A stretch of DNA of 64,000 nt from an uncultured euryarchaeote (GTDB lineage: Archaea; Thermoplasmatota; Poseidoniia; Poseidoniales; Poseidoniaceae): positions 5,512 to 69,511 of the forward strand of contig CALBRH010000055.1 in the NCBI GenBank assembly GCA_937899865.1. The letters are read 5' to 3'. Below are positions 30,383 to 60,128 of this stretch, piece by piece. Position 1 is the first letter of the stretch; every line of letters begins with the position of its first letter. A model generated the notes under the pieces. It was not told the DNA's origin, searched no databases, and worked only from the letters and a program-made list of their open reading frames with translations. Position numbers and translations under genes: made by a program.

Positions 30383-33175
30383 TTACTTATTTTTATTAAT
30401 TCTAGAAAGTAATCCTGTCTCTGACAAACTAACTCCAAGTTCTTCTTCGACAACATCTACTTCAGTCTCAATCATTAATGGATTAGTATTGATCGGCTCA
30501 CTACGCATTGTTCTAAGAACAATAATCAATACAAGAACCATGATAATTAGTCCTAAAACACCTGAAACTATCAATGTATTAGATACTTTAAATCCGTCAT
30601 CTTCATCTGTTTTATCTTCAGCAATTGGAACTGTTGAATTGAAATCTATAATGGTATATTCTACTACTTCTGATGTGAATTCTGAGTCAAAAATAGCCAC
30701 TCTAACCTCTACTGTTTCACTGCGGTTCACCGGAACTTCAAGCATTGTAACACATTCTTTTGAGTTCCCTGAATCATCAATAATACATGATGGTTGAAGA
30801 TTATCTTGCGGTACTCCATCAAGAGAAATTTCCAAACCATGTTCACTCGCCCCATCATTATCAAAAACTGACCAAGCAAGTGTCGCTGCTGTATCATCAA
30901 TAATATTGACATTCATCAATGTCAGAATTGGAATATCTGGTACACTTGTAACTTCAATGCTCAATAACTGAGAATAATTTGTAGTTCCATCTGTCACATT
31001 GAGCCATTCGTTATTGATTGTTCCAAAATAGTCATTTTGTGGTGAAATAATCAATTGTGAACCAGAAATTATTGCTACATTGGCGCTAGAAGAATCAGAC
31101 TCGATGGTCCAAGAAAGCGTATCACCATCGATATCATAGGCAAAATCAGACAAACTCAATGATATTGATTCGTCCTCTTGCATTGAAATCTGCCACATCG
31201 AATTATTAGCAATTACTGGGTCATCAACTGGAGCAACCTGTATTGGAATATCCAAATCAACAGGTTCGGTAACACCATCCGTAACTCTAACATGTAAAAC
31301 AGTAGCACCATTTGCATTTGGAACAGGATTCAAAGTTAATACTCCATTATAGTAAGAAAACTCAACAGGTCCTGCGATTCCTTGAGTCTCATCATTGATT
31401 GAAGCAAGTAATGGTTCGCCCTCTGGGTCATAAGCATACTCAGTAATATTTACTGAAACTGATGGACCGTCTTCAATTAGAGTTTGCATTACAATGTCAT
31501 CTGTTTTTACTACTGGGTCATTGTATGGTATAACCACAATTTCCAACATAGTTAATGCTTCATCAATCACTCCCAAGCCATCAGATCTAAGCAAAATGTC
31601 AACTTCAGCACCTAAGATATATTCTTCAGTAACGATGTGAGTTACCGTTAATCCCCGATAATCATTATCGATTTGTATAGAGAAATTACTGATTTGACCT
31701 CCACTTAATGTTGCTTCAACAATAAACAATTCTTGGCCATCTGGGTCAATACCAATGTCGCTTGCTAAAATATACCCTTCACCGCGTTCAGGAACTTGGA
31801 TTACTGGTGCTGGTACTGTTAATGAGATGGGAGAATCTGTTCGTAAAAATTGGTGCTCAATAGTTGAGGGAGCACCTTCAACCATCACAGTCAAGAATGC
31901 GGTGTGGTTTCCAGGCGCTAAATCTTCGACTGCATAATCACATTGTACCGTTCCGTTATCGTGTACCAAGCCAATAACTGTCACTATTTTGTTAAATCCG
32001 CATTCTACATCAATTTGCCAATTAGAATCGATTTCTCCATAGCGGTCTCCATTTCTAAGTGTCCAATTACTAGATAGTGAAAATGTATCATATCTACCAA
32101 ACTCATTGACCTGACTTGGAGACTTAGTTATATTTTCAATCAGCAAAAATTCTGATTCAAACAAATTCTCCTCGGTATATGAGTCGCTATCACTGGCGGA
32201 ATTTGGCGATGCCTCACGATTGAATGCTGGTCTAAATTCATCATGAACTCCTCTAAGTGTTAAATCTAAATACGGCACAATATGGGATATTGCGTAATCT
32301 ATTTGCTCGGTTTGAGAAATTGATGCATCGCCATCGCCACGGTCATCGCCGAAAAAGATTCCATCATCTATTTCATCTTGGAATTGATAATGATCAGCGC
32401 CAAGAACATGCATCCACTGCCAAGCTAGAGCATCGGTAGCGCTAATTATTGGTAAATTATCTTGACCTTTGGCAATTTCATCAACGGTTCCAGTCATGAA
32501 TAGCCCAGTACCCGGGCTAGCAGGGTCAATTTGCCATTCGCTAGGTTTGATATTTTGCCAACCATCCCCGCTATTCCAACCGGAAAAATCAATTCCTAAG
32601 CCGAAGATAGACCTGGGTGGTTGAATTTCAACTGACAGATTTGATTCTGGCCAAAATGGATAAACTGAGTAGGCAATTGCAGCTCCAGTACCATGGCCTG
32701 AAACACCCCAATGATGCAAATCAATATTACCAAATGCAGCAGGAATTAGACTATTAGTAGCATTGGTTTGATTCATCAAATCAATTATCGATTCTAATAA
32801 CAACAATGAAGATTCAACATTTGTAGTATCATCGCTATCAAAACCATTGGTTAGAACAACTATAGTTCCACGTTTAACTATTTCACTTGAAAAAATTCCG
32901 TAGTCAGAAGTATCCTCTCCTTCATCACAAAAGAACACCGTGAACGGAAACGGGCCATTTCCAGCCATTGCTTCGTCTTCACCGTCATTCATTGCTGGAT
33001 AAATTACTCTCACTGATTTACCATTTGCAGTCAAATCAGCAAAGCCAACTGGAAAATCAACACCAGTGTGTTGGTTTTTGAATTCTTTTGATTCAGGAGG
33101 GTGAGCAACTGATGGTGCGATAGCAAAGATACTGGCACACAAAAGGCCAATCAATATCCAAGCGTTACCCTTCAA
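30383..33175 (-). CDS. Type-I anchored surface protein (930 aa): alpha/beta-hydrolase-like head plus cadherin-like repeats
   Basis: TTG start preceded by GGGGTGGTC (SD-like). Signal peptide AWILIGLLCASIFAIAPSVA. Hydrolase-like head with elbow GVSGHGTGAA. Repeats are bounded by PYNDPVV and APVDDPVI (cadherin-like 'NDxPV' linkers, e.g. FAYDIDGDTLSWTI). C-terminal TM LIVSGVLGLIIMVLVLIIVL is followed by a charged tail. Confidence 0.85.
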   Translation of the reverse strand: MKGNAWILIGLLCASIFAIAPSVAHPPESKEFKNQHTGVDFPVGFADLTANGKSVRVIYPAMNDGEDEAMAGNGPFPFTVFFCDEGEDTSDYGIFSSEIVKRGTIVVLTNGFDSDDTTNVESSLLLLESIIDLMNQTNATNSLIPAAFGNIDLHHWGVSGHGTGAAIAYSVYPFWPESNLSVEIQPPRSIFGLGIDFSGWNSGDGWQNIKPSEWQIDPASPGTGLFMTGTVDEIAKGQDNLPIISATDALAWQWMHVLGADHYQFQDEIDDGIFFGDDRGDGDASISQTEQIDYAISHIVPYLDLTLRGVHDEFRPAFNREASPNSASDSDSYTEENLFESEFLLIENITKSPSQVNEFGRYDTFSLSSNWTLRNGDRYGEIDSNWQIDVECGFNKIVTVIGLVHDNGTVQCDYAVEDLAPGNHTAFLTVMVEGAPSTIEHQFLRTDSPISLTVPAPVIQVPERGEGYILASDIGIDPDGQELFIVEATLSGGQISNFSIQIDNDYRGLTVTHIVTEEYILGAEVDILLRSDGLGVIDEALTMLEIVVIPYNDPVVKTDDIVMQTLIEDGPSVSVNITEYAYDPEGEPLLASINDETQGIAGPVEFSYYNGVLTLNPVPNANGATVLHVRVTDGVTEPVDLDIPIQVAPVDDPVIANNSMWQISMQEDESISLSLSDFAYDIDGDTLSWTIESDSSSANVAIISGSQLIISPQNDYFGTINNEWLNVTDGTTNYSQLLSIEVTSVPDIPILTLMNVNIIDDTAATLAWSVFDNDGASEHGLEISLDGVPQDNLQPSCIIDDSGNSKECVTMLEVPVNRSETVEVRVAIFDSEFTSEVVEYTIIDFNSTVPIAEDKTDEDDGFKVSNTLIVSGVLGLIIMVLVLIIVLRTMRSEPINTNPLMIETEVDVVEEELGVSLSETGLLSRINKNK

Positions 33176-43583: not shown

Positions 43584-46500
43584 TCAGACTGGTTGGTTCC
43601 AAGTTAGACCAGTGTAGGTCTTCAAGACAGCACCTTGTGTATCTCCACTTGGTGAGTAGACGATCCTAACAGTTGCATCAACTAGTTTGTGACCATCAGC
43701 AGTTTGAGTCTTGACGTAGATGTCATCTCCTGTACTAAAGGAAGAGATTGTCTCATCTTCATCAATTGTAACTACATCACCAAAGGTTACCAAAGAATCG
43801 CTGTTGAACGGAGAGAATCCGTAAACATGGTCTGTGGAAGCAAGGTTAGTTGTTTCTGAAACTATCTGACCACTTGCATCTTCATAGATTACTGTTACTT
43901 CAACAGCTTGTGTTGCCAATACAGTTTGTGCTTGACCAACGGTAATCTTCCAGTGATCTGTTGCAGCACTACCTGTATCAACATTCTCAGCTGAGAAAGT
44001 CACTCTTGGTACACCCTTAGTATCTGTGTCAGCAAGTTGAGCTGCCCAAACATATACAACACCGGATAGAACAACAGTGATCGCAACCATCAAGATAGTT
44101 GCAATAACTGGGCTCACAGCAGCATCATCATCTGAAATTTGCTTCTCAACAAATTCTTCTTCATCATCATCTCTGCGTCCAGCAAGGACAAGAGCGCTAA
44201 CAAACAAGCCAGTTAGAGCAACTGCAATGATACTTGGTGCGAATGAAGCAACTGATAGAGCACCGATTGTTGTCACCGTAACTGGTAGAGCAACATCAGC
44301 AGTTTGCCAGTCTTCAGCAAATGCGCCATTGTATCCTTGTTCTGTGTGTTGACATGCGGAAGATTCACTCCATGCAACTTCATTACCGCCGTTAGTAGAC
44401 ATCATGTTGTTACACCAGTTCTTATCTTCAAATGCTGGTCTTCTGTTAGATTGTTGACCATTAGCATCTTCACCGATTCTACCAGGTTCAGACCACTTTC
44501 CGAATACTTGATTGCTTGAAACAGCATTGTGTGATTCAGGGTTGTCAGTTTGAACTTCGTTAACAGTACAGAGATCAGCTGCATTTGGAGTACAGGTAAC
44601 TACATCAACTTCTACCCAAACCTCAGTGGTCATGTCAGTGATGTAAACTTCCCAGTTCTCAATATCCAGTGATTCACCGAATGCAGGTGGTGTGAAGTAT
44701 TGTGGTAGTTCAATCTCAGTGTGTCCGTCAGAATGCAGAGATACAACCAATAGATGATCGTATGTGTAGTCACCGTTGTCGCCACCAGCATAGATGCTGA
44801 AGTCAACAGGTACATATGTTCCAGGCATTACATTATTGACGCCGTTGAAGTCAAATCCTTCATTCTCGTCAAGGTAGTAATCTGGTACATTCTCAGCAAC
44901 GTTGTCAACTTCTACAGACAGAGTTACTGATACAGACTCTTGTTGGTAGTTGTTTGGCGCATAGCCTTGTTGTTCTAACAATTCGTAGTTAGGCATGTAG
45001 CTTGGTGGATTCTCAGAATCTAATAGTGTCAATGTCATCTCACAACGTCCGTTAGCTGTTCTTGTTTGATGAATACCGTTGTTGTTCAGCATATCAACTT
45101 CCCAAGGTTCAGCATTTGTTGTAGCGTCCTTAATCAGAGTGAATTCTAGAATATCACCATTGATTTGAGTTGTGTAGTAGTTAGATGAATCACAGGTATT
45201 AGTATCTTCTAGAGTCCATGACAGGTCTGCATCTAGATGGTCGATATCGGACTTAATGCTAGATAGATCGAAAGTCAATGCATTTGCATCTATTGTATCC
45301 TCTACAAGGTCTAATCTGTAGTCGCTAGTTCCTGGAACACCCTGGAAAGAGTTGCTACCATCTGCGGAGTCAACAACTCCTTCAGAAGCGATTACTGGCA
45401 CATCATTAACTGGTGCAACAGCGAACTGTACTACTACAGGTGTTGCATCGGTATTTTCAGCACCATCATCAGATAGTGTTAGTGTAATGTCACAAACACC
45501 ACCATATTCCCAATTGGTGTTCTCAGTAATGACAATCTCATCGACTCCATTGACATTGGTCTGTAGAGCAACACTGATTTGATCACAAGTAGCAGTAGCG
45601 CCCCATGTGTAAACTTGGTTTACAGGGTATTGCTCATTTGCCATATCTCTGATAAACGAATTCATTGTATCGTTAGCAAGTTTACCTAGAGGCTTACTGT
45701 AACTTGCGAATCCTTCGTCTCTAGAGTTGTATCTTTCACCAGCAGCATCAACGTATAGATATAAATCGCCGTTGTCACAATCTGGGTCTACAGAAGTTCT
45801 AGCATCACAGATTACAGGTGCATCGTTGATATTCTTTACAGTGTAAGTAATTGTCTTTGCTGCAGTCTGTCCGTGAGTGTCGACAACTTCGAAAGTCAAA
45901 TCAAATGTACCGAATTGGTCATTGATCGGAGTTAACGATAGTGTTCCTGTTGTACCAGATACGTCGCTAAAGTCTGTCAGTATGTTTGCAAATGCATCCA
46001 TATTGCTTTCAGTGACTTCCCATTCCATGTCTTCTTCAACATCTTGCTCATCATCAACAAATGTCGACAAGTCAAGGTCAAGTTGTGCAGAGTCTTCGCT
46101 AACCAATATGTCATCAAGCGCAGAGGTAATCTCTGGACATGCTCTGAGGATGTTAAAGGATAGAGAAGTGGTTGAATCCATTACAACATTTGCTTCAGTA
46201 TGCCAATCATAGTCACATGTATGTCTGATTTCAGCAGGTGTCTTAGCCATGATATTATAGTTGTGAGGTGTAGTAGGTGGGTTGCCAAACTCGAATGAAC
46301 GATGAAGTAGAACTTCATTAGTCATTGTACCGTCAGATAGATCTAACTTGTTAAGAGCTAATTCGTATGCACTATCAAAGGTTTCAGCACCGGTTCCAAC
46401 AATTGTACCTTGGTCTGGGCTTGCTGAGTTAACATTATCAGTTCCAGCATCTTGAATCGATGCTACGATATTCATTGCATCAACAGAACCACCAATTGAA

Positions 46501-49500
46501 GCGAGTGGTACACTAACTTCTAGATATTGTCCTTGAGCAGATACTGCACTTGCACCTGGGTCTAATACCCAATTAGGAGCATTGTAGTAGTAGACATCCA
46601 CGCCAGCAGAAGTCACGACAATTGCGAAGTCTGCATCATATGGTAGAGTGTGTACATTATTGTATCCGGTTGAACTACCAGCCATATCATTGCTGTCTAC
46701 ATAAACGTAGACATCGCTTGCAGATGTGTCAACACTGTCAAATCCTAAGACAAGTGAACCCGAATCTGTTGTCACATACATTGGTCCACCAACAAGACCT
46801 GGCATAGCATAGCCAGATGGATTTAGAGCATTGCCACCAACCCAATCATCACTATTACCATCTACAACCATTGTTGTAGTGAAAGTTGGTGATGAATAAG
46901 CCGAGTAATCTTCATCCGAGACGATTGATAAACCAACTTGTGCAGTTGGTTCGCCGCCAAGGTGATCTGCATCGATATTCAACCAGTTTGCCTCATCAAC
47001 AATTGATGTTGCATCTGTTGAAACCTTAGCCGCATCAAGAGCCCAATCAATAACTGTCAATCGAGTATTGTCACGCGCATCAATCCAAGTGGTTGAACTT
47101 GCTGATTTTGCTGCAGATGCAGGACTGCTTGAACCGCCGGCAGGATCTGTTAATGATTGTACAGTTCCCTTGACATTTTCAGCAATCATGATAGTATCAG
47201 CGTCAGCCTGACCAGCATCCCATAGAACTTCTGAATTCTTGGCATGGAAACCAACATTGCCAGTTACATCCATTGGATATAGCCAAGCATAGTTGCTGTC
47301 CTCAACCATCAAACCAGTTCCAGTAGAGCCACCATCGAAAGTAGCACCGATTACTGAAACTTCAATGTCTTCGGTGTGAACACCAATTCCATTGTCACCA
47401 GCAGTGAAGGAAGCATCGCCAGTAATTGTCAAAATACCGCCACCTGTCTTGTGGATACCAGTCTCGAATCCAGACATAGTTGTACCATCAAGGTTTATGT
47501 CGAAGCCGAATGTATTATCATCATCAAATCCAACTGAACCAGACTGATCGCTACCAGTAATGACTGAGTTTTTATCATTCCAAATACATCCATCATTAAC
47601 AATTGCATTCTGTCCGATGTTGATTGTGTTCGCTTCGGTAAGAACCGCATACGACGAAACATCACAATTGGACAGTTGTATTCCAACTCCAAGCGGATTA
47701 TTGTTTACGCTATCAAAGGTAATGGTATTATCCTTAATTGTTGGACCAACCCATGAGTTATCCTCTGGCATGGCTTCTTGCCATTGTAGAGCAGCTTCTC
47801 CACAGTAAGAACCACAGAATAGTCTAAATCTCATTTCATATCCTGGATCAAGAGTGACCTTGAGTACATCACTCTCTTGTCCAGAAGTAAATGGTATAGA
47901 TGGATAAGCAGAGCTTATACAGTTGATTCTACCAGCCCATGTACCAAATGGTCCACCATAGTTGGTACTACTTGGCGCAGGTGCACCAGTAGTTGTTACC
48001 GCCCATGTACCTGCTGGTGCTACTTGCATACCTATGTTGGTATTACAGTTAGAACCAAATCCGTCACCATATTGGTCAATTCCAACAAAGTCATATGTTA
48101 CTGGATCGTTACCTAGATTCTGTAGTAGTACTCCGTCCATAGTGTTAGAGTACGCTGTTGGGTAGTATGGGTTAGACGAATATCCGAGGTAAGGACCACG
48201 GTATCCTGGTCGAGTGTTCTGTATTCCAGCAACTCCAGGATCCCAGTAGTACATTGGGTTTGTATTAGGTCCAGAAGAAGTAGAAGCCCATGTTCCAGTT
48301 TCACCTTGAACAATTTCGAATCCTCCACCGTTTGGACCATCACCATATGTGTCTAACAGATAGAACACGTATGTTCCTACTTGGTCCAAAACAATGTTTG
48401 GATTTCCGCTGTTCCAAGATTCTTCACCATCTTGTCCGAAGTTACCTGTTGCAGGATCCCAAACAGTCACAGTATTATCAGGTGCTGTGATGTAAACTCT
48501 CAATTCAGAGGCCCATGTACCTGCGATTAAGCGAATAATCATTTCTTGTCCTACATCGTTTGTTGCATAAACGTCAGGAGAGACACAGGATCTCCACCAT
48601 GTAGGGAATGGACATGGATCACCAAATCCACCCCACTGTACGAATTGACCTGGAACGTTAGGGAAATCAGTGTTCACACCAGCAACAACTTCAGTCACGA
48701 ATTCAGTAGGTTTGGTTAACGAATCAGCAAGGATAGCATATTGACCTGGGTCAGTAATATCGTTACCTTCAACATTGAAATCACCGCCAACAGCACTTAT
48801 TGCAAAGTCTGATTGGTAATTGAAGTCATTATCGTTGATGTTCACTCTTTGAACTCCATCAGTACTTACACCATATGCTCCACCATTGAATACGTTGGAG
48901 TCAATTAGAGCATTGAAAGATGTGTCGTCTTGGAATCTAACGTGTGAACAAGTTGAACATGTCATTACGTTGTTAGATAATACCATACCATTGGTATCAG
49001 AATCAGCCCATCCCATGACATTTAGTCCTACAGTATCTACGAAAGTATTGCCATCGATAACAACATTGTTAGAACCAACAACTGTGTGAGCTGTTGATGA
49101 TGTTCCATCATAGTATGAATCAATGAATGCTACACTCAGTACACAATTTGCGAATGTATTACCAGAAATTGTCGCTGAATCTATACCACCAAGTCTCAAA
49201 CAGTAGTCAGCATCTGAGAATAATGTAGGAGTAATTCCTAGATCTCTGTAGTAATAGATGAAGCTGTTCTTAACCTCGACAGTTGAAGGCACGTAAGTAT
49301 TGAATGAACCGAAACTGGAGGAGTCTCTGTCACCAGTACCAGTTGCAAGACCGATGATGTTGTTGAAAGTTACACCATCAATGTCAAGATTCAACGGGTT
49401 CTCATTGGTTCCTTGTAGACCACCAATTACCAGACCAACAACATCACCATTTGCAGTCTTAGGGTAAAGTCCGTTGACTTCACCACCATGCATCTTTAGT

Positions 49501-52500
49501 GTTGTTCCGTATGGGTAATCAGAAATCCATTGTGCGATTCCAGTTCCATATTCAGTAGTATAACCAGTATCGAAAACAATTGCGTTATCCAATGTGTATG
49601 TTACACCATCTCTTAGTTCTAGAGTACCTGAGTCGATCATAATGGCTTTTCCAGACAAGTCCATGGAGGAAGTTCCATCCCACAAACCTTCGTCATCGCC
49701 ATATTCTACCATTCCTGTATCATAGGTTCTCGATCCGGATGCTGAGAAAGATGTTCCTGCACACGGTGAAACCATGACATAGTTTGAATCTGTACCACAT
49801 ACTCTCACATCAATTTGATCAGTTAAACTGTATTGATCGAAATTTGTCGCAGTAGCCGAATCATATGGTGCGTCTGCCAAGTTAGGCGTTGCTTGTAAGT
49901 AACGGAAATCTCCAGAGTTAGTAGTCGAGTCAGTCCATGAATAATCAACTTCTGCTACGCTTGAAATTTTGTATGTGCTGAAGTAGGCAGAGTAATCTGT
50001 CACTCCGCTTGCATCAACATCATAGATCGAGAATGACAATCCGGATGTTAATCCGTTTGCATCTGTAGATCCTGTTGAAGTTGTAGCAGCAGCTTGGCTA
50101 GACATCACAACATTGGCATCAGCTAGAGGTGTTCCGTCAGCATCAAGTTCGGCGAAATAACTTCTATCTCTGTTGAACTTTCCTGTTGAACTTGAACCTA
50201 TAGTAACTTTACTTTGGTCAACTATACCATCTAAGAACGAGACAGCGCTTGAATCAGCAATTTCAACATCTACTGTATTACTTCCAACAATGTCTACATC
50301 GTTCATGGATATATCTCCAACTCCCTCAAAGGACATTGCGGTATTGACGTTAGAAATTGACATTGTGTCAACCATGTGGTTAGCGCTACTTTGAGATCCA
50401 ACTCTAAATCCAACATTACCGTTGGAAATAGTTGCGTCAGCTACAAGAGTTTCAACATCATTGTTTAGATATATGGCAGTACCCAATCCATTAAAGTTAG
50501 AATTGGTTATTTCTTGAATTCCTGCACTTGTAGATGGTGCATAGAATCCATAGTTGTTGTTTGCTCCTAATCCAGAGTCATCTACATCCATATTATCCAA
50601 ATAAACGCTGTTTGTACCAGATGTTCTAACACCGTATTGAACAGGGTCATCGATATCTAGACCGTTGATGTTGGCTAAAGTTCCACCTTGTAGATCAATT
50701 CCTACGTTTGCATCAGTAATTTGTGCGTTATTCAAGATAACACCCTTTCCAATTACTGCTTCGGAATAATCTCCAAATGCTGCTGGGTTGGAACCAGATC
50801 TTGTAAGCAGTTCTACACTATCTCTGTTCATGTTTGCCCAGTGACCAAGCGAACTACCGAGGTATCTGTGCATCATGTCGAATTTCAACTCGACCTTCGC
50901 AATCGAGGAATCTGTCAAATCAATAGTTGGCCAACTCAAAAGCATGTTCGAACCAATGGTTGTTCTGAAGGTAGGAGACCTTGCATTACATGCTTCATAG
51001 TTTGGTGAACCCCATGTTCCAGCCAAACTAGAGCGTGTTTCACCAATTGTTGTGTCATGCCAGTTTCCAAGGTTGGAAATAATGGTTGAATAACCGAATG
51101 CACCACCTGTTCCCATTCCGTAGCGTCCAGTAATTGGGTCATCGAATCCCCAGTTAAATTCTGGGTAAGAAGATACACTGATTGGTTCAGGAACGGTTCC
51201 TTCAGAAATTCTAAATCCGAATTGTTCAGGATATAATGGAGATGTAGTTACTCCATACAAGTCTCCAATGTTAGGAGTACTAGAGTACCAATAGTAGTTG
51301 TCTAGGCGCTCTCCCCATCTCCATGGATTTGGTGATTCTCCACCATAGTTACAATCCCAGAATGGCGCACCACCGGCTCCTCCAAGGTAGCTTAATCCAC
51401 CGTTAGTTACGGCAGGATCATTTTGGCTGTATGGATAATATCCTACATCGTTTTCGTCTTGAATTAGGTATGATGCTCCAGAGTTATCAGTTACTTCAAT
51501 TACTAAGTTGTCCATTGTCACATATGGTACGGACCAAGATGTTACACCATAGCCACCTACAGTATATCTGTATGTGTATGTACCACCGTAATTAATCATC
51601 ATTGCAGGTTGTAGATAATCTGCTTGCCCAACCCAACTGGTTAGATCAACTGTGTATTCTTCCCACTCGAAACAGCCGAATCTGTGGAAGAACCAACAGT
51701 TATCCATGTTTGGAAGTTCTCTTGCATTAAAACCAGTTCCAATGTTGGATGGGTAATTTTGTGCAAGGCCTTGTAATACCGCACTTGAATACATAGTTGG
51801 TAGTTTAGGACCATCTTTTGCGACAATTCCATTAGTATTTCCGTTTGATGTGTAGCCATCTAGATTCATTGAACCGCCGTCGGAGTTAATTCCTACAGCC
51901 ATGTTGGATATAGTTAAACCGTCACCAACAACTTCACCACCATTGGTAAGTTCAATACCTACACCTAGGTTTGATGAACCTGCTAAAGTGGCAGCAGAGG
52001 AAACTGTTACCAATCCACCATCGACATCAATCATTGGGTAAGAGTTTGAAGCAACTGCAGTAGCAGTCAAATATGCTCCTCCACCGAGTTTTAGTTCTGC
52101 GCCGCTTGGAACTTCCAATTGTCCGCTCTTTGAAGAATCGAACAATAGGTTACTAATGGTACCAGATTGCATATCCAAAACACCGCCGGATTCAATCGCA
52201 AGGTCAACTGCATTTAGTAAACCTTCACCGTAAATCTTTGGTATGTCACCAGTTCCTGTATCGGTCATCATAATCAATTTACCACCATTACCAATAGTCA
52301 AAGTTGGATTGTCTAGTGCATCCTCTCTAAATGTAATTTGTGAACCTTCAAGTACAACAGTACATCCATCGATTAGCAAGTCATCTGCGAGCACCATTGT
52401 AGCACCCTTGAACTCGTAAGTACCATCACCATCTGGATCTGTATTGAGGAAGGTTTCGTTAGTTGCCATCCACGCACAGTCCATGAAACTGACATTGTCA

Positions 52501-55500
52501 AGTGTCACAGGAGGTGAAACAAGTCTAATGTCAGCATAACTTCCGATTGTGTAAGTACCAAAGTCAGCCAATGGAACTCCAGTTTGTAGAACTCCATCTT
52601 CGAATAGAACTTCAGTAGCAGGGGTACCATCAACCAATGCTGGATTAGCCTGGCCTGCTCCAGCAGACCCACTAGCTCGTACGACATGAGTGTTGTAAGT
52701 TGTTGGCGTGTGATCTCCAGTAATTACTGCAACATCGCTCGCTCTTCCATCGTTTCCAGTTGTTGCTCTGTGAATTACCTTGTTCGGGAACAATTCAGCG
52801 CCGGTTGAGTCAAGAACAGATGCAGTAATAGTAACTCCTGCCTCTGGTATTTGTTCTGGAAGGCCTGTATTAGCGTCAACTCCCAATCTGTAGGCAAGTG
52901 AATTGGCAAATCCACCATAATAGACTTCTGGGATTGCAGTAGGTTGAACATTGGTATTGCCGTCAATTGATGTGTGACAATCTGTAGTCTTTCCATTGGA
53001 ATCTGCACAATCATTACCATTCAAAGTAACATCGATTAAGAATCCATCAGAAGATAGACCGCCAAAATACAGATATGGACCAAATTCAGATACTGTTGTA
53101 CTGGTCACATCTACATCAACAAAGATACCTTCTGTTGCATGCATGTAAATTGCTGAGTCAGAACTACTGTGAGACATTGTAGATGATACCATCTGAATAG
53201 TACTCGTACCTCCAGGTGTGTTACATTCTGAACTGAGTTGTCCAAGTGCTGAGTTAACAATCTTAATGTTTGCACCACAGCCGAATGATCTGTACAGCCC
53301 AACATCCATGTTAGTGAACTCTAACATATCATTTGAACCACCAGTAACACCAAGTTCTTGAATTGAGAATTCATTAGCGACGGTGATTTGATCAGCTGTT
53401 CCAGGGAAAGTCCTGTACATTGTCATATCAGGTGCTGTAACTCCGTCAAATACTGAGTTAGCACCCATTGAACCTGGTACGTTGGTTGTAGCACCACAAT
53501 ATGGATTGATATCGAATCGATGTTGTCCGGTAGGCATGAAACCTGTACCAAGGTCGACATTGGTCAATGAAACCTTACTTGCTGCGCAAATCCAACCTTG
53601 TGCATAGTTTGGTGCGTTGAAGTTAGTTACTGTAACCTCGGAATTAGCGCCATGACTCAAACCAAGGCTTACACCAGTGTTTTCCCAAGTCCAACCATTG
53701 TTATTCCATCTCCATTGGTCGTTAATGGTAGGCGTAGTTGCAGTTACATCACTAATAGTAATGGTTTGAAGATCTGTTCGAATTAGCGTAACCTTAGAGT
53801 CTACAATGTTTACATACTCCATGGTCAAAGAACCAGAATTACTTCCTGAAACATCAGATGCGATAGCACCTGCCCAATCGTAATTGTTGGTGTTACATCG
53901 AGTCATAGTAGATGGGTTGCCTGCTGTACCTGTTAGTGTAGCAACTGTGTTTTGAGCAAAGTTGAAACAAGAACTTCTTGAGTCAGTAATTGCGAAGTTA
54001 GACATTGTAACAACTGTTCCTTGTCCGCTACCATGAGCGAATGCAGAATCTACATTTGAGTAAGATACATCAGATAGAGTAAATTCTCCTACGTCACAAT
54101 CTTGGGTAGCAGTTCCACATCCTTGGAAACTTGAATCAGCTGGTCTACTACCTGCAGTTATTGCCGCATGGTTAGTATTGCTGATAGAAACATGTTGCAT
54201 TACATGTCTGTCTTCAACAGTTGTACCTGCACAGTCACTAGTAAATGCCAATCCATGCCATAGAGCATTTGAATTGACACTTCTGTCTGCGTTAAAGGTG
54301 ATTGGGTCAGTCGAAGTTCCCATTGCTGTGAACTTTGAACATGTACCGTCAGCCTTGACGCCACCATCGAATGAGATACCTTTGTTCTCTCCGATAATAA
54401 CTTCAACGCCTGGTTCAATTGTCAAGTCAGCATCAATACTTAGGTAACCGCTTGGATCTGATGGGTTAACCTTAATCGGGCTATCGATTAGATACCATGT
54501 AGTATCATCTGTAATATCTGCAGTAACTGTCTTACCTTGGCCATCGAATGGAAGTGTTCTGAACCATACACCTTGACAGGATGTAGTGCCAGTTGAGCCA
54601 CAATAGTCAACTGTTTCACGTGACCAATATGGTGCCATCATGTGCAATTTACCGCTTAGGACGTTGTTTGCGCCGCCACAGGTAGTCCAGAAGTTTGCAC
54701 GGAATGCACCTGATGTTGGCCAGCATCCTGTAGAGGAAGATGAACTTTCGATTCTAATGGTGTTTGTACTACCATCATCAACAAAGTGCAAGAATCCGCT
54801 TCCAGTTGCTTGGATTCTGTTAAGAGGATCGCTACCGTCATAAGACTGGCCATAGAACTCAAAGTTAAAGTCGTCTGGTATGTCAAAGTTTCCTGCACAG
54901 TATACGCCATATTGACTCCAATCAGAGTTTGAGTCACATCTGTCGTCATTACTGAATGTGAATGAACTTACAGGCACGGTCTGAGTCGATGATACAAGAG
55001 GTAGTGGAGTCATTCCAAGTTCGAATGTTTCTACAAGATAGTCTCCAGTATCAGACAGAGTAAATCTCAAGTTGTTAGTATGAGGGTTTCCGTAAACAAA
55101 GTAGTCCCAATTGCCAACTTCCATGAAGTTGCTTCGGTCTTCTCTGATAGCAGTGACGCCTACCTTCTCATTGTTGTAACAGTCCTCGTCATAATGGAAC
55201 TCAAACTCATTGGTAACATCATACATGATAACTTGCATGCTACATCCGTCATTGTTAGATGTGTAAGAATTCTCTTTGTACTCAACCCATTCAACAATCA
55301 ATGTGTTGGTAGGATTAGCAACTTCAAAGGTGTAAGTGTCGCCTTGCATAGAGTTAGCAGGAGGCGCTTGTGGGCTTGGTTGAATGTCTCTTGTTGTCAT
55401 GTGATAGGAAACGGTATCTCCTCTGGTTAATCCAGTGAATTGATAAGTCCATTCACACTCTGAGTAAGTACAGATATTTCTCTTATCCGCATCAGTCTCA

Positions 55501-58500
55501 TAGATGAAAGATGTTGTACCATCTGAGGTTGGAACCAAAGCAGCATCACCAGTTGAGGTTACGACGCCCTGGTCGGAGGTAATTGTATAGTGAATAGTCG
55601 GTCCAACATTTGGTACAGGACTGGTATCTACACCTTGATCTGCATATCGGTTATCGGAAATTGTATAGGTCACAGTTCTATCAAGAGCATGTGAATCGCC
55701 AATTTGTCCACCAGTAACCAATGGTGCGGAACTATCTGGATCTGGTTCTACATTTCTAATCTGCCAAAGCAGACCGTCGTCACGTATGTCTTCTCCAGTC
55801 TTGGTAGCACCTATTGCAAATCCTTGCCAGCTACCGCCTGCACTTGTTTCAGTTGCATCAGGTGTACAATCTGATGAAGTTTCCATGAACATAACGTGCC
55901 CTGCTGTTGTTAAACAGATCTTACTGAATTCCCCAGTTCCGGTACCGAATGGCACTCCACCAAATCCTGTGTTTGTTCCAAGTGATGGTGTATTTGAATC
56001 TGCTAGGTCAATCACGAATGATTCAGCAGTGTAGCCATCAGTGTACAAAGAGTTGATGTCGTAAGGAGTGACAGCGCCAGATGGCCATGCATTTCCAGTG
56101 TATGACTCTACTGTCAACTTTGTGTCAGTATAATCTCCATATCCTGGATCGGTAGTAATGAAGTCCCAAGTACCTGCACCCAAGATTCCACCGTTAGGAA
56201 TGTCGTGTAAGTTTTGGTTCATCGTGTTGGAAACGTGAATCGAGTTCGATGATAAGGAACCAAATGTGTAACCCATATTGTAGGAATCAGTACCTCCATG
56301 AGGTACATTGGTTATTTCCATGTTTTGTTCGTAACACCAACTGTAACATTGGTAGATAACTCTCGCAACATCTCCTTGAGGAACTGTGACTGTTGCCATT
56401 GTTGTTGGCAAGCTATAGTCCCTATTTCGGCCCGAGTCAGCGTATAGAGTGTTGATTGTAATCTGCGGTGTAAACATGTTAGGTGTGTAGGCTTCTGCAA
56501 CTACATCCGGCAAACTGGCATCAAGTCTGTTATCGATGTTATCGGAGCGTAAGACAATCGAAGAACCTGTTGCTGCAATAGCCCATTCATTGCTATTAGA
56601 ATCGTAAACCATCATGAAATTTTGAGTTCCGTATCGACTGATATCGAGAATTCCTCCAAATGCAGAGTCGAGTTCAAGGGTGTTAGTTGGTGCGCCGGTA
56701 CATCCAGTCGCTCCTGGGTTACAGTCGGTAGCGACTCCTTCCCAGTTGATATCCCAGTGACCCAAAGAATGATCGCCAGATGAATGGACATCGTCGTCCC
56801 AGAAACACGTATCGTCGATATTCCAAGATGATGTGTAGAATGAACCACAGTCAGTAAAGTCAAATTCAAAGTAGAATTCTCCACTACCTGCATAGTAAGT
56901 TATCTGTCTATCAAATACATCTTGTGTCTCTTGGTATGAACCGCCTGGTTGATAATCTGGCCCTTTAACATCCTCGAATAAGGCTGTGAGTTTTTTGCTT
57001 GTAGCTTGGTAGACATCTTCAACGGTGAACGTCAAATCAGCAGCACCAACTGCAGGGAAACGACCTGCATTTGGTGACTGTGGTGGAACCTTAGAGTTGT
57101 CTACTGCTGCAGCATCACTGAAAGTCCAATAATAATCTACAGTTGTTCCAGCATTTATGTCCCCGGTTGTTGCGGAGAAGGTACAAACTTGATTCTTGGT
57201 AGCACATGTAGTTAGCAATGTTGAGTCAACATCAGTATATGAGTTGCCGCCATCAGTGCTGTACCACAATTTTGGACCACCAACAGCAGTTGTATCTACT
57301 GGGTTTCTAGCATCCATGATTGATAGGAATAGAGTTCTTGAGCCTTCAACATATGATGTAACACCAGTGTAGTGTCCATCGTATTCAACTGTTGGTGCAA
57401 CGTCATCTGGTGTGTTATCTTCAAGTTCTACAATTAGGTAGAAGTTGGAGAAATCTGCACCACCGTCCCAATTATTGGTGTTTGCACCGCCAATTGAGTT
57501 AAGGGCATTAGGGAATCCGACACCAAATTCGATGTAGCCGCCGTTTGCAGCATTATTGTATACGTCTGCAAACATTGCCATAGTTCCAGAAGAACATGCT
57601 GTAACACTGCCACAAATCGAAACTGTTTGAGGTGTGTTAAGACTTATGTCAATTGGCATTCTAGCTATCTGTTCAGAACTAATCAATGAGTTTAGTCTCT
57701 GAAGAGATGGTGATGCTAGAACAACACCTGATGAGCCACCGGCTGTATCGAATCTTACTTCTCCTCCGGAGCCTGGCCCAGAGCCATCTCCTGCAGTATC
57801 CCAAACCAATGCCTCATAGTTTCCAGGAGTTTGGATGAACACACTGTCTTCAGAGGTATAATCGGTTGCAGCGGTACAAGGTGGTGTTGAAGCAGGGTTG
57901 AAACTGCATAAATCCCAGTAGTTAGTCCATCCAGTTGTACCAGCTTGGCGGTAGTAAATCTCTGTGTGATCTGCATCACCAGGATTAGAACCTGTCCTGT
58001 ACATGAAATATGCTTCTTGTCCGGTCAGTACTGTGAAAGTTGTATCTGCAGGTTCGCTACCTGTCGGTGAACCTCCTGCACCAGGACCTATTGCTGGAAG
58101 TACTGGAGGAGCAGGTGCTTGCTTTACAGTTGCGGAGTTTTCACTTGGCCAGCAACCTGAGGTTGGACAGTTGTAAGCAATTCTCATCTCATCTCCAGCA
58201 TTTACTGTGAAGTATCTTGGAACCTCATATCCGTCATCTTCAGCATCGTGAGCAGCACCGGTAAAATCTCCAACGGTAACTAAGTCTGTCCATGCTGCAT
58301 TAGATGCACCAATTGTTCTTGTTTGGAAATAAACTGCTGCGTTAGAGTTAAGTCCATCACCGTAAGAATCGGTTACGATGTATTCATAACTACCAGCATC
58401 AAAAATTCCATTGCTCTCAAACGATGATGATCCGCTAACGAAATCAACTGAGCTTCCATCGCATGTAGTCATATCAGAGGTCATTGAATACTGATATTGA

Positions 58501-60128
58501 TTGGTTCCGTAAATGTCGTTATCTGTTTGACAATCGGTATAGTCGCTGAAGCCACTAAACACGTGTTGTGCAGTAGATGGAGGTGTTGGTGGCATTTGAT
58601 AATCTGGAAGTGGGTTTCCTGTACAATCACCTGGATTATACATGCCATTCAAGTCTGGATCTCCTGAACTACCAAGAGTAAGTGCATAGCCGCCACATTC
58701 TTCCATAATAATTAGACCACCATAGTCTCCGAAACCTGTGTAACTGTACTTCCAATCTAGTTCATAGACTGCAGATACACTTCCAATTGGCAAGGTATTG
58801 ACACCATGGTTGAAGGTAAAATCAAATGTTGGTGAAGACTGATGGTCTCCACCCCAACTTGGATAATCGTACAAAAATCGTGAATTCCTCGAAGAATGAC
58901 AATCCTCTGCTCCAATATCACAGGTTTGGTAATTACCACCTGCAGAGTCAGTGTTGAGAGTGTTGGTACCAACTGATGGGTCGATAACTACTGGGAATGA
59001 TGTGTAGTCATCTAGCAACCAATCGATGTTAACTGCGGTTGTGATTGTTAATGTGTTAGCATCAAGAGTCATGAAATACTGAGTTGATGCTTCTAATTGT
59101 GCAAGTTTGTCTTCCTTATTGAGTTCTTCCTTAACGTTATTACTCTCTAGAGAACTATCATAGGCAAAAGGTGCCGCAATATAACCGATGACTAGTCCAG
59201 TATCGGCTTTGACGATATCGATTGCTGAATCGGTTACAAATACCTCGCCATCAGCAATAATTTGCTCACCATTGGACCATAGTTCAACATCATCAGGAAG
59301 GCCAACGGTCTCTTGCATTCCAAAGTAACCTTGGACTGAGTTACCGTCAATCTCTCGGTAGGTCTCAAGTTCATTGACTAGGGTCGTTCTAACATCGTTT
59401 GATAGTTTGTTGATAACAAAATCTTGCTTGAGTTCATTTACGCTAACATGGTATTCCATGTCAATGTTAGCGCTCATTGGATAGTTGATGCTATTACCGC
59501 CGACCTTAACATGGTCGGTAGGAGGCATGAATACGCCATCTCTAACTGGATTGATATTGGTATAAGGAACCATTATTCCATCAAGGAATGGGTCTGTACC
59601 AGTTCCCTGGAAGACTGTAACTGGAACAGGATTTAGACCTGTTACAAGAACATCTTCACCAATTAGAATTTGTGCACCATCCATAGGATTGTGACTAAAT
59701 TGTACTGGAGTGAAAATATCTTCAACGTAGTATCCATTTTCATTTGACAAAATGGTTGTATCTAAATCAATTAGTTCACCATATTGGTTTTCATAGTGTA
59801 ATGGGTTGTACGAGTGAACCGATTGCAGGTTACCGTCATCATTGATGAAGGTCTTACTGTGTGTCGTCCTCATTCCAATCATTTCTAGATCTTCATCAAA
59901 GCCAATTGATTCGGCTTCAAATGAAGTTTTTTCTATTTCAGCATCGAAATCTCCGGTGCTGTCTGTGTTAACTTCTTGCGAATCAGCTGAATCTGAATCG
60001 ATACTGTTGATATCTGAGTTGTTAACCATTGCCGCCCACGACATTAGCACCATCAAAACACACAACAGCGAAGCAATTCCTATTCCGCCAAACACGCTTT
60101 TTACATTTCTATTTCTTAGTTCTTTCAT
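43584..60128 (-). CDS. Giant mosaic surface protein (5514 aa) with C-terminal TM plus fused archaeal type IV pilin-like domain
   Basis: Uninterrupted 16.5-kb ORF. N-terminal signal anchor [20 protein letters not shown]. The ectodomain has D-x-YGDG modules, several parallel beta-helix (PbH1-like) blocks and cadherin-like repeats ([17 protein letters not shown]). These are followed by a TM helix, an acidic loop and a [17 protein letters not shown] pilin-like segment. Confidence 0.9.
   Translation of the reverse strand: [5514 protein letters not shown]
43587..44117 (-). other. Archaeal type IV pilin-like module (class III signal-type H-domain plus ~150-aa beta domain) encoded in frame at the C-terminus of the 5514-aa ORF
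   Basis: [28 protein letters not shown] is followed by ..[14 protein letters not shown]...KITVGQAQ.... This is the pattern seen at the N-terminus of DUF1628/Pilin_N archaeal pilin-like proteins (..(R/K)(G/A)[20 protein letters not shown].. then P.v.F...). It is preceded by TM 44178..44243 and acidic loop 44118..44177. Confidence 0.7.

What the first reader, a model, noticed from the sequence alone, without database searches (positions are those of the whole stretch)
43587..44243. Giant 5514-aa adhesin-like protein fused in frame to an archaeal type IV pilin-like module
The last ~240 codons of ORF 43584..60128(-) read: [22 protein letters not shown] (TM), [20 protein letters not shown] (20-aa acidic loop), [47 protein letters not shown]..., then ~150 beta-rich aa and the stop. 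[17 protein letters not shown] is a near-consensus copy of the hydrophobic H-domain of archaeal pilin-like proteins (usual context M..(K/R)(G/A)[20 protein letters not shown]). That domain normally sits at the extreme N-terminus and is processed on the cytoplasmic face by a prepilin peptidase (PibD/FlaK/EppA type). Here it is internal, 5337 residues into a protein that already has its own N-terminal signal anchor. The topology is self-consistent: ectodomain outside, TM1, short acidic cytoplasmic loop, H-domain running in to out, pilin globular domain outside. Cleavage at AA|VSPVI would give two products. One is a type-I anchored giant protein with a short acidic tail, like its four neighbours. 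The other is a mature pilin subunit. Without cleavage the giant ectodomain would be covalently tethered to a pilin-like module by a helical hairpin. The V of VSPVI is a GTG codon, so internal initiation giving a leaderless, pre-matured pilin is a formal alternative, although I see no SD-like sequence upstream. I know of no described adhesin-pilin fusion of this kind.
Basis: partly seen in the sequence, partly recalled or inferred. Interest (0 to 1): 0.9.

Follow-up and report, generated by a model that had tools for sequence, protein, structure and literature searches.

The report
Giant surface protein ending in pilin
In the abundant ocean archaea called Marine Group II, a giant cell-surface protein ends in a complete pilus-subunit module joined to it by a membrane hairpin; this conserved arrangement appears undescribed and may show how these cells couple huge surface proteins to pili.

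Summary
ORF 43584..60128(-) encodes 5514 aa with exactly three hydrophobic segments: an N-terminal signal anchor, TM1 (5296-5317) and a pilin helix (5338-5367). A 20-aa acidic loop lies between TM1 and the helix.

The last 177 aa score above the curated cut-offs of Pfam Pilin_N and TIGR02537. They fold as helix plus beta-sandwich, and the best structural matches are archaeal type IV pilins and archaellins.

It is not an assembly artefact. 80 species-level Poseidoniales MAGs and independent full-length proteins (2785-5559 aa) have the same in-frame architecture. Apparent stand-alone homologues are broken gene calls.

Ala(-1) and the helix are invariant, although all four Ala codons are used and position -2 is variable. 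Stand-alone pilins attributed to marine Euryarchaeota MAGs carry the same acidic site ([13 protein letters not shown]...). A second, unrelated family repeats the architecture, and its fused pilin is 85% identical to a stand-alone paralogue.

Internal GTG initiation is rejected, because V(+1) is GTC/GTA/GTT in 31 of 79 sequences.

Most likely (about 0.5) a class III signal peptidase cuts at A5337|V5338, giving a TM-anchored giant protein and a mature pilin. The main rival is an uncleaved hairpin anchor. Cleavage is inferred, not shown. No published description was found.

The parts
43584..60128 (-). Whole gene: a 5514-aa precursor made of signal anchor, giant ectodomain, TM1, acidic loop and pilin module.
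   Evidence: ORF list and translation. Full-length relatives of 2785-5559 aa have the same N-terminus and C-terminus.
60018..60107 (-). N-terminal signal anchor or signal peptide (residues about 8-37, SVFGGIGIASLLCVLMVLM).
   Evidence: Hydropathy peak of 2.36. The segment is conserved in the full-length homologues P0122, P0123, P0125 and P0134.
44247..60017 (-). Giant extracytoplasmic region (residues 38-5294). It is acidic and rich in T/G/S/D, with no recognisable domain family.
   Evidence: Pfam gives only a sub-threshold CBM_56 match. There is no PDB sequence match.
44265..44903 (-). Membrane-proximal ecto-domain 'X' (residues about 5076-5288). In paralogues elsewhere it is joined directly to the pilin beta-domain.
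   Evidence: Alignment A3 with P0143, P0148, P0150 and P0152. The AF2 model shows a beta-rich fold with pLDDT about 80.
44232..44246 (-). Conserved SFAPS motif (S5295-S5299) at the outer end of TM1.
   Evidence: (S/G/T)F(A/L/V)P(S/G/A) is present in both fused families, although their TM1 sequences differ. No known C-terminal sorting-signal HMM reaches its cut-off.
44178..44243 (-). TM1 (residues 5296-5317, [22 protein letters not shown]), a stop-transfer helix running from outside to inside.
   Evidence: Hydropathy peak of 2.30 and AF2 helix 43-73 of the 260-aa fragment. It is followed by RR in nearly all homologues.
44118..44177 (-). Cytoplasmic acidic loop (residues 5318-5337, [20 protein letters not shown]). 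It is equivalent to a class III leader peptide. The predicted cleavage is after A5337, between bases 44118 and 44117.
   Evidence: The loop is 16-23 aa in family 1 (mode 19-20, one outlier of 31), with on average 9.8 acidic and 2.5 basic residues. Position -1 is Ala in 79 of 79 sequences with all four codons used, -3 is E/D, -4 is D and -2 is variable. Stand-alone pilins carry the same NEEA|VSPVI site.
44028..44117 (-). Pilin N-terminal hydrophobic helix (residues 5338-5367, [30 protein letters not shown]).
   Evidence: Pilin_N and TIGR02537 score above their cut-offs. The segment is invariant across 27 aligned homologues of 38-77% identity and across unbiased HMMER representatives. Synonymous codons vary freely.
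43587..44027 (-). Pilin globular beta-sandwich domain (residues 5368-5514).
   Evidence: AF2 pLDDT is above 90. The Foldseek top hits are the H. volcanii type IV pilus 8fj5 (E=2.7e-5), the Cuniculiplasma filament 8rey, the archaellins 9eq7 and 5z1l, and FlaF 4p94.

Best explanation
This is a real, conserved gene of Marine Group II archaea (Poseidoniales). Its product is a precursor with two functional parts. The giant N-terminal region is exported and held in the membrane by TM1. The chain then makes a short acidic cytoplasmic loop and re-enters the membrane as the hydrophobic helix of a complete archaeal type IV pilin, whose beta-sandwich domain lies outside the cell.

The loop ends in the same site ([D/E][D/E]x[10 protein letters not shown]...) as the leader of stand-alone prepilins of this kind, which are attributed to marine Euryarchaeota MAGs. 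I infer that the cell's class III signal peptidase (PibD/ArlK type) cuts after A5337 on the cytoplasmic face. That would give (i) a type-I anchored giant protein with a 20-residue acidic tail and (ii) a mature 177-aa pilin.

The pilin helix is nearly identical to that of the stand-alone pilins, so the released pilin probably co-assembles with them as a minor or adaptor subunit. It probably stays non-covalently bound, through its beta-domain, to the membrane-proximal domain of the giant protein. One adhesin would then be coupled to one pilin.

Shown: the architecture, the topology logic, the pilin identity and fold, the conservation, and the match of the site to N-terminal prepilins. Inferred: the cleavage, the filament incorporation and the domain-domain association.
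For: Pilin identity:
- Pilin_N and TIGR02537 score above their curated cut-offs.
- The fold matches solved archaeal pilins and archaellins.

The fusion is real:
- The frame is open upstream of A|VSPVI in all 80 species-representative MAG loci. In most it stays open to the locus edge, up to about 3400 codons.
- Independent full-length proteins of 2785-5559 aa carry the module at the extreme C-terminus.
- Apparent stand-alone copies are artefacts of N-gaps or internal-start calls.

Signature of a cleavage site:
- Ala(-1) is invariant with all four codons used, while -2 has entropy 2.6 bits. Positions -3 and -4 are acidic.
- Stand-alone pilins carry [40 protein letters not shown].
- Loop length (16-23 aa) is in the range of class III leaders.

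The helix is constrained as in true pilins:
- It is invariant across homologues that are only 38-77% identical overall.
- Helix variants track lineage in both fused and stand-alone forms. Family 1 has [11 protein letters not shown]..YVWAS and family 2 has IILMVAITIVL..WLWVS.

Recurrence: a second family (P0212, P0192, P0261) has the same SFAP-TM-loop-pilin layout. Its fused pilin is 85% identical to the stand-alone pilin P0264, including the last leader residues.

Domain pairing: hairpin-less paralogues join domain X directly to the beta-domain.

Lineage context: all Poseidoniaceae genera are reported to have an archaellum-type operon with flaJ (PMC6461757). By established knowledge such an operon requires a class III signal peptidase.
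Against: - No experimental or proteomic evidence of cleavage is available.
- I know of no precedent for a class III signal peptidase cutting a site preceded by another TM helix.
- The canonical K/R at -2 is missing.
- No peptidase, assembly ATPase, platform protein or other pilin lies in the 64-kb window. I could not check the rest of the genome.
- One pilin per giant protein is an odd stoichiometry for a filament subunit.
- Hairpin-less paralogues show that the beta-domain can work without any pilin helix.
- Unprocessed pilin-like proteins exist (ArlF/ArlG), and FlaF is among the fold hits.
- Part of the invariance in the 80 loci comes from ascertainment, because the scan used the patterns AVSPVIATI and LMVAITVVL. 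The pattern-free HMMER set agrees, however.
Confidence: 0.5

Rival explanations
1. Uncleaved helical-hairpin anchor. The pilin-derived helix serves only as a second TM segment, and the beta-sandwich is a membrane-proximal extracellular domain of the giant protein. This would resemble the unprocessed pilin-like stator proteins ArlF/ArlG. At most, the module would dock on or terminate a filament at its base, with the polypeptide staying in one piece.
For: - Hairpin-less paralogues (P0143, P0148, P0150, P0152) keep domain X and the beta-domain in one extracellular chain. The beta-domain therefore has a filament-independent role.
- The beta-domain of the stand-alone pilin P0115 also occurs without a helix, in lipoprotein-like proteins.
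- The FlaF soluble domain is among the fold matches.
- No processing machinery lies in the window.
Against: - A plain anchor does not explain the invariance of Ala(-1) and the acidic -3/-4 positions in an otherwise variable cytoplasmic loop.
- It does not explain the residue-for-residue identity of the helix with stand-alone prepilins.
- TM1, a true anchor in the same proteins, is much less conserved.
- In family 2 the fused and stand-alone pilins are 85% identical.
Confidence: 0.3
2. Double processing. The SFAPS motif, TM1 and the RR cluster form a C-terminal-type sorting signal that is cut on the outer face by an archaeosortase-like enzyme. This would free or lipid-anchor the ectodomain. The remaining TM1-loop-pilin would be a prepilin with an unusually long, membrane-embedded leader, which is then cut by the class III peptidase.
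For: - The (S/G/T)F(A/L/V)P(S/G/A) motif is conserved in both fused families even though their TM1 sequences differ. Divergent members read PGFVPS and PGFLPS, followed by TM and RRR.
- The tripartite shape resembles PGF-CTERM-type signals (own knowledge).
- Several sorting-signal HMMs give weak sub-threshold matches.
Against: - No sorting-signal model reaches its cut-off. The best scores are 14-16 bits against cut-offs of 24-29.
- Such signals are by definition at the extreme C-terminus.
- I did not test for an archaeosortase in these genomes.
- The motif could simply be a structural cap of TM1.
Confidence: 0.1
3. Two translation products from one ORF. The pilin would be made separately by internal initiation, at the GTG of V5338 or at a codon just upstream. 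The in-frame continuity would be incidental.
For: V5338 is GTG in the window. In 21 of 79 homologues the -2 residue is ATG. Gene callers do pick these starts in fragments, as in P0082 and P0088.
Against: - V(+1) is GTC, GTA or GTT, which are not start codons, in 31 of 79 sequences. Position -2 is A/Q/T/S/L/R in most.
- No nucleotide-level conservation is seen in the 40 nt upstream.
- A two-residue MA leader is shorter than the shortest leaders processed by ArlK (5 aa) or PibD (3 aa) (PMC10117864).
- Preservation of the frame over about 5300 codons in 80 species argues that the fusion itself is selected.
Confidence: 0.03
4. Assembly or sequencing artefact: a missed stop or frameshift has merged an adhesin gene with a downstream pilin gene.
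For: None beyond prior plausibility. Some database entries do show the pilin as a separate short protein (P0019, P0084).
Against: - Those entries are themselves artefacts. In L001 the frame is open upstream but the sequence contains ambiguous bases. L002 has a scaffold N-gap with a duplicated VPSFAPS.
- 80 independent MAGs and many metagenome contigs from different projects and sequencing technologies share the continuous frame.
Confidence: 0.01

Closest known systems
Archaeal adhesion pilins with the Pilin_N/DUF1628 H-domain (for example Haloferax volcanii PilA1-6, structure 8fj5) and the Cuniculiplasma filament subunit (8rey)
   Same: They share the conserved G/A|VSPVI... hydrophobic helix. 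The HMM scores are above cut-off. They share the helix plus beta-sandwich fold and are the top Foldseek hits.
   Different: The known pilins are stand-alone proteins of about 130-180 aa. Their site is 3-30 residues from the N-terminus and usually has K/R at -2. Here the site is at residue 5338 of 5514, behind a TM helix, with an acidic 'leader'.
Modular type IV pilins of bacteria (Streptococcus sanguinis PilB and PilC; own knowledge, not checked here)
   Same: A pilin module is covalently combined with a large adhesive module, so that a filament can display it.
   Different: In the bacterial proteins the pilin module is N-terminal, the extra module is grafted on its C-terminal side, and one leader cleavage suffices. 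Here the order is reversed, a TM hairpin intervenes, and cleavage would separate the two parts.
PilY1/PilC-type non-pilin tip adhesins docked on minor pilins (bacterial T4P; own knowledge)
   Same: This is a possible functional analogy: a very large adhesin held on a filament by non-covalent contact with a minor pilin's globular domain.
   Different: Those are separate genes with no shared precursor, and the adhesin has no membrane anchor.
Class III signal-peptide substrate-binding proteins of Sulfolobales (the 'bindosome')
   Same: A pilin-type N-terminal helix is used to mount a non-pilin functional domain at the cell surface (bioRxiv 10.64898/2026.04.22.720090).
   Different: The signal peptide is N-terminal and the cargo is C-terminal of the helix. 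There is no second TM helix and no giant protein.
ArlF/ArlG (FlaF/FlaG) archaellum stator proteins
   Same: They combine a pilin-like hydrophobic helix with a beta-sandwich. They remain in the membrane unprocessed (own knowledge). FlaF 4p94 is a fold hit at E about 2e-3.
   Different: They are encoded in archaellum operons and lack a conserved cleavage motif. They are small, stand-alone proteins.
PGF-CTERM and related archaeosortase sorting signals
   Same: The layout of motif, TM helix and Arg cluster before the loop has the same tripartite form.
   Different: No model reaches its cut-off, and the element is not at the C-terminus.

Membership tests
Archaeal type IV pilin / class III signal-peptide protein (Pfam PF07790 Pilin_N; TIGR02537) | Profile match above the curated cut-off. 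| tested here: met
   Pilin_N scores 34.6 bits against 25.2. TIGR02537 scores 38.6 bits against 20.
Archaeal type IV pilin / class III signal-peptide protein | A small residue (G/A/S) at -1, followed directly by a hydrophobic helix of about 20-30 residues. | tested here: met
   The site reads A5337|[25 protein letters not shown]. Position -1 is Ala in 79 of 79 homologues.
Archaeal type IV pilin / class III signal-peptide protein | A basic residue (K/R) at -2. | tested here: not met
   Position -2 is Ala here and is variable in homologues. Stand-alone pilins of this kind also have E at -2 (NEEA|VSPVI).
Archaeal type IV pilin / class III signal-peptide protein | The signal lies at the extreme N-terminus, behind a short cytoplasmic leader. 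| tested here: not met
   The site is at residue 5338 of 5514. It is preceded by a signal anchor, a 5250-aa ectodomain, TM1 and a 20-aa loop.
Archaeal type IV pilin / class III signal-peptide protein | A globular beta-sandwich domain like those of solved pilins and archaellins. | tested here: met
   AF2 pLDDT is above 90. Foldseek finds 8fj5 at E=2.7e-5 (TM-score by target 0.53), and also 8rey, 9eq7 and 5z1l.
Archaeal type IV pilin / class III signal-peptide protein | Cleavage by a PibD/ArlK/EppA-type aspartic peptidase. | not testable with these tools
   No peptidase lies in the window. The rest of the genome is not available. No proteomic data are available.
Archaeal type IV pilin / class III signal-peptide protein | Assembly into a filament by an ArlI/PilB-type ATPase and an ArlJ/TadC-type platform protein. 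| not testable with these tools
   None is encoded in the window. Rinke et al. report a fla operon in all Poseidoniaceae genera.
ArlF/ArlG unprocessed pilin-like stator proteins | Encoded within an archaellum operon, with no conserved peptidase site. | tested here: not met
   The neighbours are HAD, CinA, the PolD small subunit, Pelota, FTHFS and flotillin. The cleavage-type site is conserved.
PGF-CTERM / other -CTERM sorting domains (NCBIfam) | HMM match above cut-off, at the extreme C-terminus. | tested here: not met
   The best scores are 14-16 bits against cut-offs of 24-29. The element is followed by about 200 further residues.
Known adhesin domain families (cadherin-like, Big, PKD, TSP3 and others) | A Pfam domain match in the ectodomain. 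| tested here: not met
   The only match is a sub-threshold CBM_56 hit. There is no PDB sequence match.

The most novel reading that the evidence does not exclude
The gene encodes the first known 'polyprotein' substrate of a class III signal peptidase. One translation product is inserted as a hairpin and cut on the cytoplasmic face. It yields a giant surface protein and its own dedicated pilin. The two remain paired outside the cell through domain X and the pilin beta-domain, so that the pilin carries or positions the giant protein on a type IV filament. A second cut at the conserved SFAPS motif might release TM1. This would be a built-in one-to-one loading mechanism for giant adhesins on archaeal pili in the most abundant surface-ocean archaea.
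Probability: 0.3. Interest if true: 0.9.

Novelty: new variant of a known kind. Interest (0 to 1): 0.72.

Why it matters
Marine Group II archaea are uncultured and are among the most abundant heterotrophs of the surface ocean. Their attachment to particles and algae has been inferred only from 'flagellar' operons and large surface proteins.

A conserved gene that physically links a 5000-residue surface protein to a pilin gives a concrete and testable connection between those two features.

For the type IV filament field, it would extend the substrate rules of class III signal peptidases to an internal site preceded by a TM helix and an acidic leader. It would also add a new way of making modular pilins.

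For annotation, it shows that many database 'type IV pilin' or 'flagellin-like' entries from marine metagenomes are C-terminal fragments of giant genes.

Tried and rejected
- **Stand-alone homologues.** P0019, P0084, P0062, P0082 and P0088 looked like separate pilin genes. The DNA shows an open upstream frame with ambiguous bases, a scaffold N-gap or an internal-start call, so these are artefacts.
- **Internal initiation at GTG(V+1) or ATG(-2).** Neither codon is conserved, and the resulting leader would be too short. Rejected.
- **Known C-terminal sorting signals for SFAPS+TM1+RR.** No NCBIfam model reaches its cut-off.
- **Function of the ectodomain.** Pfam and PDB sequence searches gave nothing.
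- **Pilus machinery, peptidase or another pilin in the window.** None was found.
- **Paralogues of the C-terminal 464 aa, or of the giant protein, among the other window ORFs.** None was found.
- **Contact between domain X and the pilin beta-domain.** A 450-aa AF2 model was made, but the tool returns no coordinates. It gave only secondary structure and the same fold hits.
- **Literature on this fusion or on an MGII prepilin peptidase.** Nine searches and six papers read gave no description.
- **Pfam on the Trp/Tyr-rich cytoplasmic tails of neighbouring giant proteins.** No hit.
Full report
**1. The observation**

The minus-strand ORF 43584..60128 encodes 5514 residues.
- an SFAPS motif;
- a 22-residue hydrophobic segment, TM1 (F5296-G5317);
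- the loop [20 protein letters not shown] (5318-5337);
- [30 protein letters not shown] (5338-5367);
- about 147 beta-rich residues and the stop.

A hydropathy scan of the whole protein finds only three hydrophobic segments: 8-37, 5285-5319 and 5334-5366. The proposed topology therefore holds together: N-terminal signal anchor, ectodomain outside, TM1 crossing inward, acidic loop inside, pilin helix crossing outward, beta-domain outside.

The last 260 residues match Pfam Pilin_N (34.6 bits, cut-off 25.2) and TIGR02537 (38.6 bits, cut-off 20).

An AlphaFold2 model built on 27 homologues gives two long helices and a beta-sandwich with pLDDT above 90. Its best PDB matches are the Haloferax volcanii type IV pilus (8fj5, E=2.7e-5), the Cuniculiplasma filament (8rey), archaellins (9eq7, 5z1l) and the FlaF soluble domain. 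A 450-residue model gave the same hits. The pilin identity of the module is therefore established by both sequence and fold.

The ectodomain has no Pfam or PDB sequence match. 'Adhesin-like' rests only on size, export signal, acidic T/G/S/D-rich composition and analogy.

**2. Is the fusion real?**

A search of the clustered protein database with the last 260 aa returned 1562 hits. Many cover 98-100% of the query, that is TM1, loop and pilin, and come from Poseidoniales, Thalassarchaeaceae or 'Euryarchaeota' MAGs and marine metagenomes.

Some hits looked like stand-alone pilins of 170-185 aa. I checked the DNA.
- In L001 (P0019) the frame is open for at least 1200 codons upstream.
- In L002 (P0084) a scaffold gap of Ns with a duplicated VPSFAPS separates the two calls.
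- P0082 and P0088 start at an internal Met that is residue -2 in longer members.

These are artefacts.

An exhaustive HMMER search of 1.8 billion representatives found full-length proteins of 5559, 4640, 4595, 4572, 4539, 4372, 3639 and 2785 aa. In each the module occupies the last 170-190 residues, and the N-terminal signal anchor resembles that of the window protein.

A scan of one genome per species (GTDB) returned 539 relatives. The best 80 are 80 different MAGs, almost all named Poseidoniales, Poseidoniaceae or Poseidonia. The closest is UBA8725, at 87% identity. In every one the frame is open upstream of A|VSPVI. In most it stays open to the edge of the 10-kb flank, about 3400 codons.

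Synteny downstream is conserved: HAD hydrolase, CinA, PolD small subunit, Pelota, FTHFS, flotillin. A missed stop or frameshift is excluded for practical purposes.

**3. Conservation pattern**

In an alignment of 27 C-termini that are 38-77% identical overall, A(-1) through L(+17) are invariant apart from a single conservative M/L change at +10. TM1 is only moderately conserved and the loop is variable.

Across 79 distinct nucleotide sequences:
- Ala(-1) is invariant and uses all four codons (GCA 40, GCT 19, GCC 14, GCG 6).
- Position -2 is highly variable (A 22, M 21, Q 10, T 10, S 8 and others).
- Position -3 is E/D and -4 is D.
- Every helix position shows synonymous variation.

This is purifying selection on the protein, not lack of divergence and not a nucleotide element. 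Those loci were found with the patterns AVSPVIATI and LMVAITVVL, which is an ascertainment bias. The pattern-free HMMER representatives show the same site, however. That includes the most divergent one, P0137, which is 39% identical and reads DEDDEA|VSPVVATILLVAVTLVLAAIVYLW.

The loop is 16-23 residues in this family (mode 19-20), with one outlier of 31. It carries on average 9.8 acidic and 2.5 basic residues.

**4. Comparison with N-terminal prepilins**

Stand-alone Pilin_N proteins of about 165-175 aa are abundant (1430 hits). Named members are attributed to marine Euryarchaeota MAGs. A helix-less relative of their beta-domain is named Poseidoniaceae.

These proteins read M(K/Q)[44 protein letters not shown]. 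The acidic -2/-3 positions are therefore normal for stand-alone pilins of this kind, and they explain the missing K/R at -2. The mature helix is about 30/35 identical to the fused one.

The stand-alone gene I examined lies beside a glycosyltransferase cluster, not beside an assembly system.

**5. A second family with the same layout**

P0212 (816 aa), P0192 and P0261 end in ...PSFAP(G/S/A)-TM-(basic/acidic loop of 10-15 aa)-DED(G/A)|VSPVIAIILMVAITIVLAGVLWLWVS..., followed by a different beta-domain.

Most relatives of that pilin are ordinary stand-alone prepilins with basic leaders (...KDRGG|VSPVIAI...NRKA|VSPVIAI). Some sit in tandem arrays.

The fused P0261 and the stand-alone P0264 are 85% identical from the last leader residues to the C-terminus. 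One contig carries two near-identical pilin copies in tandem.

The architecture has therefore arisen or spread more than once. The fused pilin is interchangeable in sequence with a bona fide prepilin, and helix variants co-vary between fused and stand-alone forms within each lineage.

**6. Hairpin-less paralogues**

P0143, P0148, P0150 and P0152 (416-707 aa) are homologous to the window protein on both sides of the hairpin. The shared parts are the membrane-proximal domain X (VPDYYFD..GFDFNGV.NVM.GTYVP...MDVLTC..CD) and the pilin beta-domain (PRFTFE...VYGF.P.NS.S.VTF.D...TF..GD.IF).

In these proteins the roughly 75-residue SFAPS-TM1-loop-helix segment is replaced by a short acidic linker. The proteins have their own C-terminal anchor (alignment A3).

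This shows two things. Domain X and the beta-domain act as neighbours outside the cell. The beta-domain can also work without a filament-forming helix.

**7. Mechanism**

The evidence favours a precursor cut by a class III signal peptidase at A5337|V5338. The arguments are:
- the site is identical to N-terminal prepilin sites;
- Ala(-1) is invariant next to a variable -2;
- the loop has the length of a leader peptide;
- the helix is constrained as in true pilins;
- fused and stand-alone pilins are near-identical in family 2.

The products would be a type-I anchored giant protein with a short acidic tail, like its neighbours in the window, and a mature 177-aa pilin.

The hairpin-less paralogues suggest that the two products stay associated through domain X and the beta-domain. 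The near-identical helix suggests co-assembly with stand-alone pilins. All Poseidoniaceae genera are reported to carry an archaellum-type operon thought to serve adhesion (PMC6461757).

Cleavage, assembly and association are inferences. I put the cleaved-precursor model at about 0.5.

The main rival, at 0.3, is an uncleaved hairpin anchor, with ArlF/ArlG as precedent. It is supported by the hairpin-less forms but does not explain the conservation at -1, -3 and -4 or the conservation of the helix.

A double-processing variant using the conserved SFAPS motif as an outer-face sorting signal is possible (0.1). No known sorting-signal model reaches its cut-off.

Internal initiation is rejected for two reasons. 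V(+1) is GTC, GTA or GTT in 31 of 79 sequences and -2 is Met in only 21. A two-residue leader is also below the minimum processed by ArlK (5 aa) or PibD (3 aa) (PMC10117864).

**8. Comparison with what is known, and novelty**

The module is a member of the Pilin_N/TIGR02537 family by profile and by fold. It fails two defining features of class III signal-peptide proteins: N-terminal position and K/R at -2.

The closest functional analogies are bacterial modular pilins (which have the reverse domain order), PilY1-type tip adhesins, and the Sulfolobus bindosome proteins.

I found no description of a C-terminal or internal pilin module in any of the following:
- the census of archaeal type IV pili (PMC4858521);
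- a 2026 preprint on archaeal TFF systems;
- the MGII genomics paper;
- a review of archaellation.

NCBI annotates fragments simply as 'type IV pilin'.

I rate it a new variant of a known kind, with interest 0.72. It is conserved in a globally dominant archaeal order, is surprising for the type IV filament field and is directly testable.

Noticed in passing
window 44232..44246 (-), residues S5295-S5299; also P0212, P0192, P0261, P0135 and P0137: A short motif, (S/G/T)F(A/L/V)P(S/G/A), sits directly at the outer end of TM1. It is conserved in both fused families even though the TM1 sequences differ, and divergent members read PGFVPS or PGFLPS. With the TM helix and the RR cluster it has the shape of a C-terminal sorting signal, but no NCBIfam model reaches its cut-off.
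   Followed up: partly
P0143, P0148, P0150, P0152, P0147 (alignment A3): These short paralogues (416-707 aa) join the membrane-proximal ecto-domain directly to the pilin beta-domain. The whole TM1-loop-helix hairpin is replaced by an acidic linker. Some also carry thrombospondin-type-3-like repeats, and each has its own C-terminal anchor (LPSIG-TM-RRE).
   Followed up: partly
P0362, P0373, P0399, P0390: The beta-domain of the stand-alone pilin P0115 also occurs, at 65-84% identity, as the C-terminal domain of lipoprotein-like proteins of about 284 aa that lack the pilin helix. P0390 keeps a remnant of the helix end (YIWATSLAG). Pilin beta-domains appear to be shuffled repeatedly in this lineage.
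   Followed up: no
P0111-P0120, P0298-P0359: Stand-alone Pilin_N prepilins of this kind, attributed to marine Euryarchaeota MAGs, have net-acidic leaders ([15 protein letters not shown]) with E at -2 and -3 instead of the canonical K/R at -2. This implies an unusual substrate preference of the class III signal peptidase.
   Followed up: partly
window 9793..10130 (-) and 12438..12760 (-), the C-terminal tails of the 876-aa and 3083-aa proteins; also the P0143 tail: The cytoplasmic tails of neighbouring giant surface proteins are Asp/Glu/Tyr-rich. They end in a shared Trp/Tyr-rich motif (GWYVD..YWNVGPDGSW, DGVWYYREVESDDWIEW, THWYLANNGEHWYSTDDGY). There is no Pfam match. This may be an undescribed cytoplasmic docking domain.
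   Followed up: partly
L001 3612-4160 (P0019), L002 4345-4470 (P0084), L006: Public annotations split the giant gene at ambiguous bases, at scaffold gaps (with a duplicated VPSFAPS either side of the Ns) or at long-read frameshifts. This creates spurious 'stand-alone' pilin or 'flagellin-like protein' entries. One locus (L053) is binned as Verrucomicrobiales.
   Followed up: yes
L090 1158-2624 and 2678-3535: In family 2, a Peptidase_C25 (gingipain-like) ORF ends 54 nt before the fused fragment P0261, which has no signal peptide of its own. It is probably one gene broken by a frameshift. If so, a protease ectodomain would be fused to TM-loop-pilin.
   Followed up: partly
window 12438..21689 (-), 30383..33175 (-), 60357..63437 (-): The window holds five large type-I anchored surface proteins. 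The 3083-aa one has CBM96 and disaggregatase-related repeats, the 930-aa one has cadherin-like/Big_9 domains, and the 1026-aa and 876-aa ones have no Pfam hit. They are interspersed with housekeeping genes, and only one of the five carries the pilin module.
   Followed up: partly
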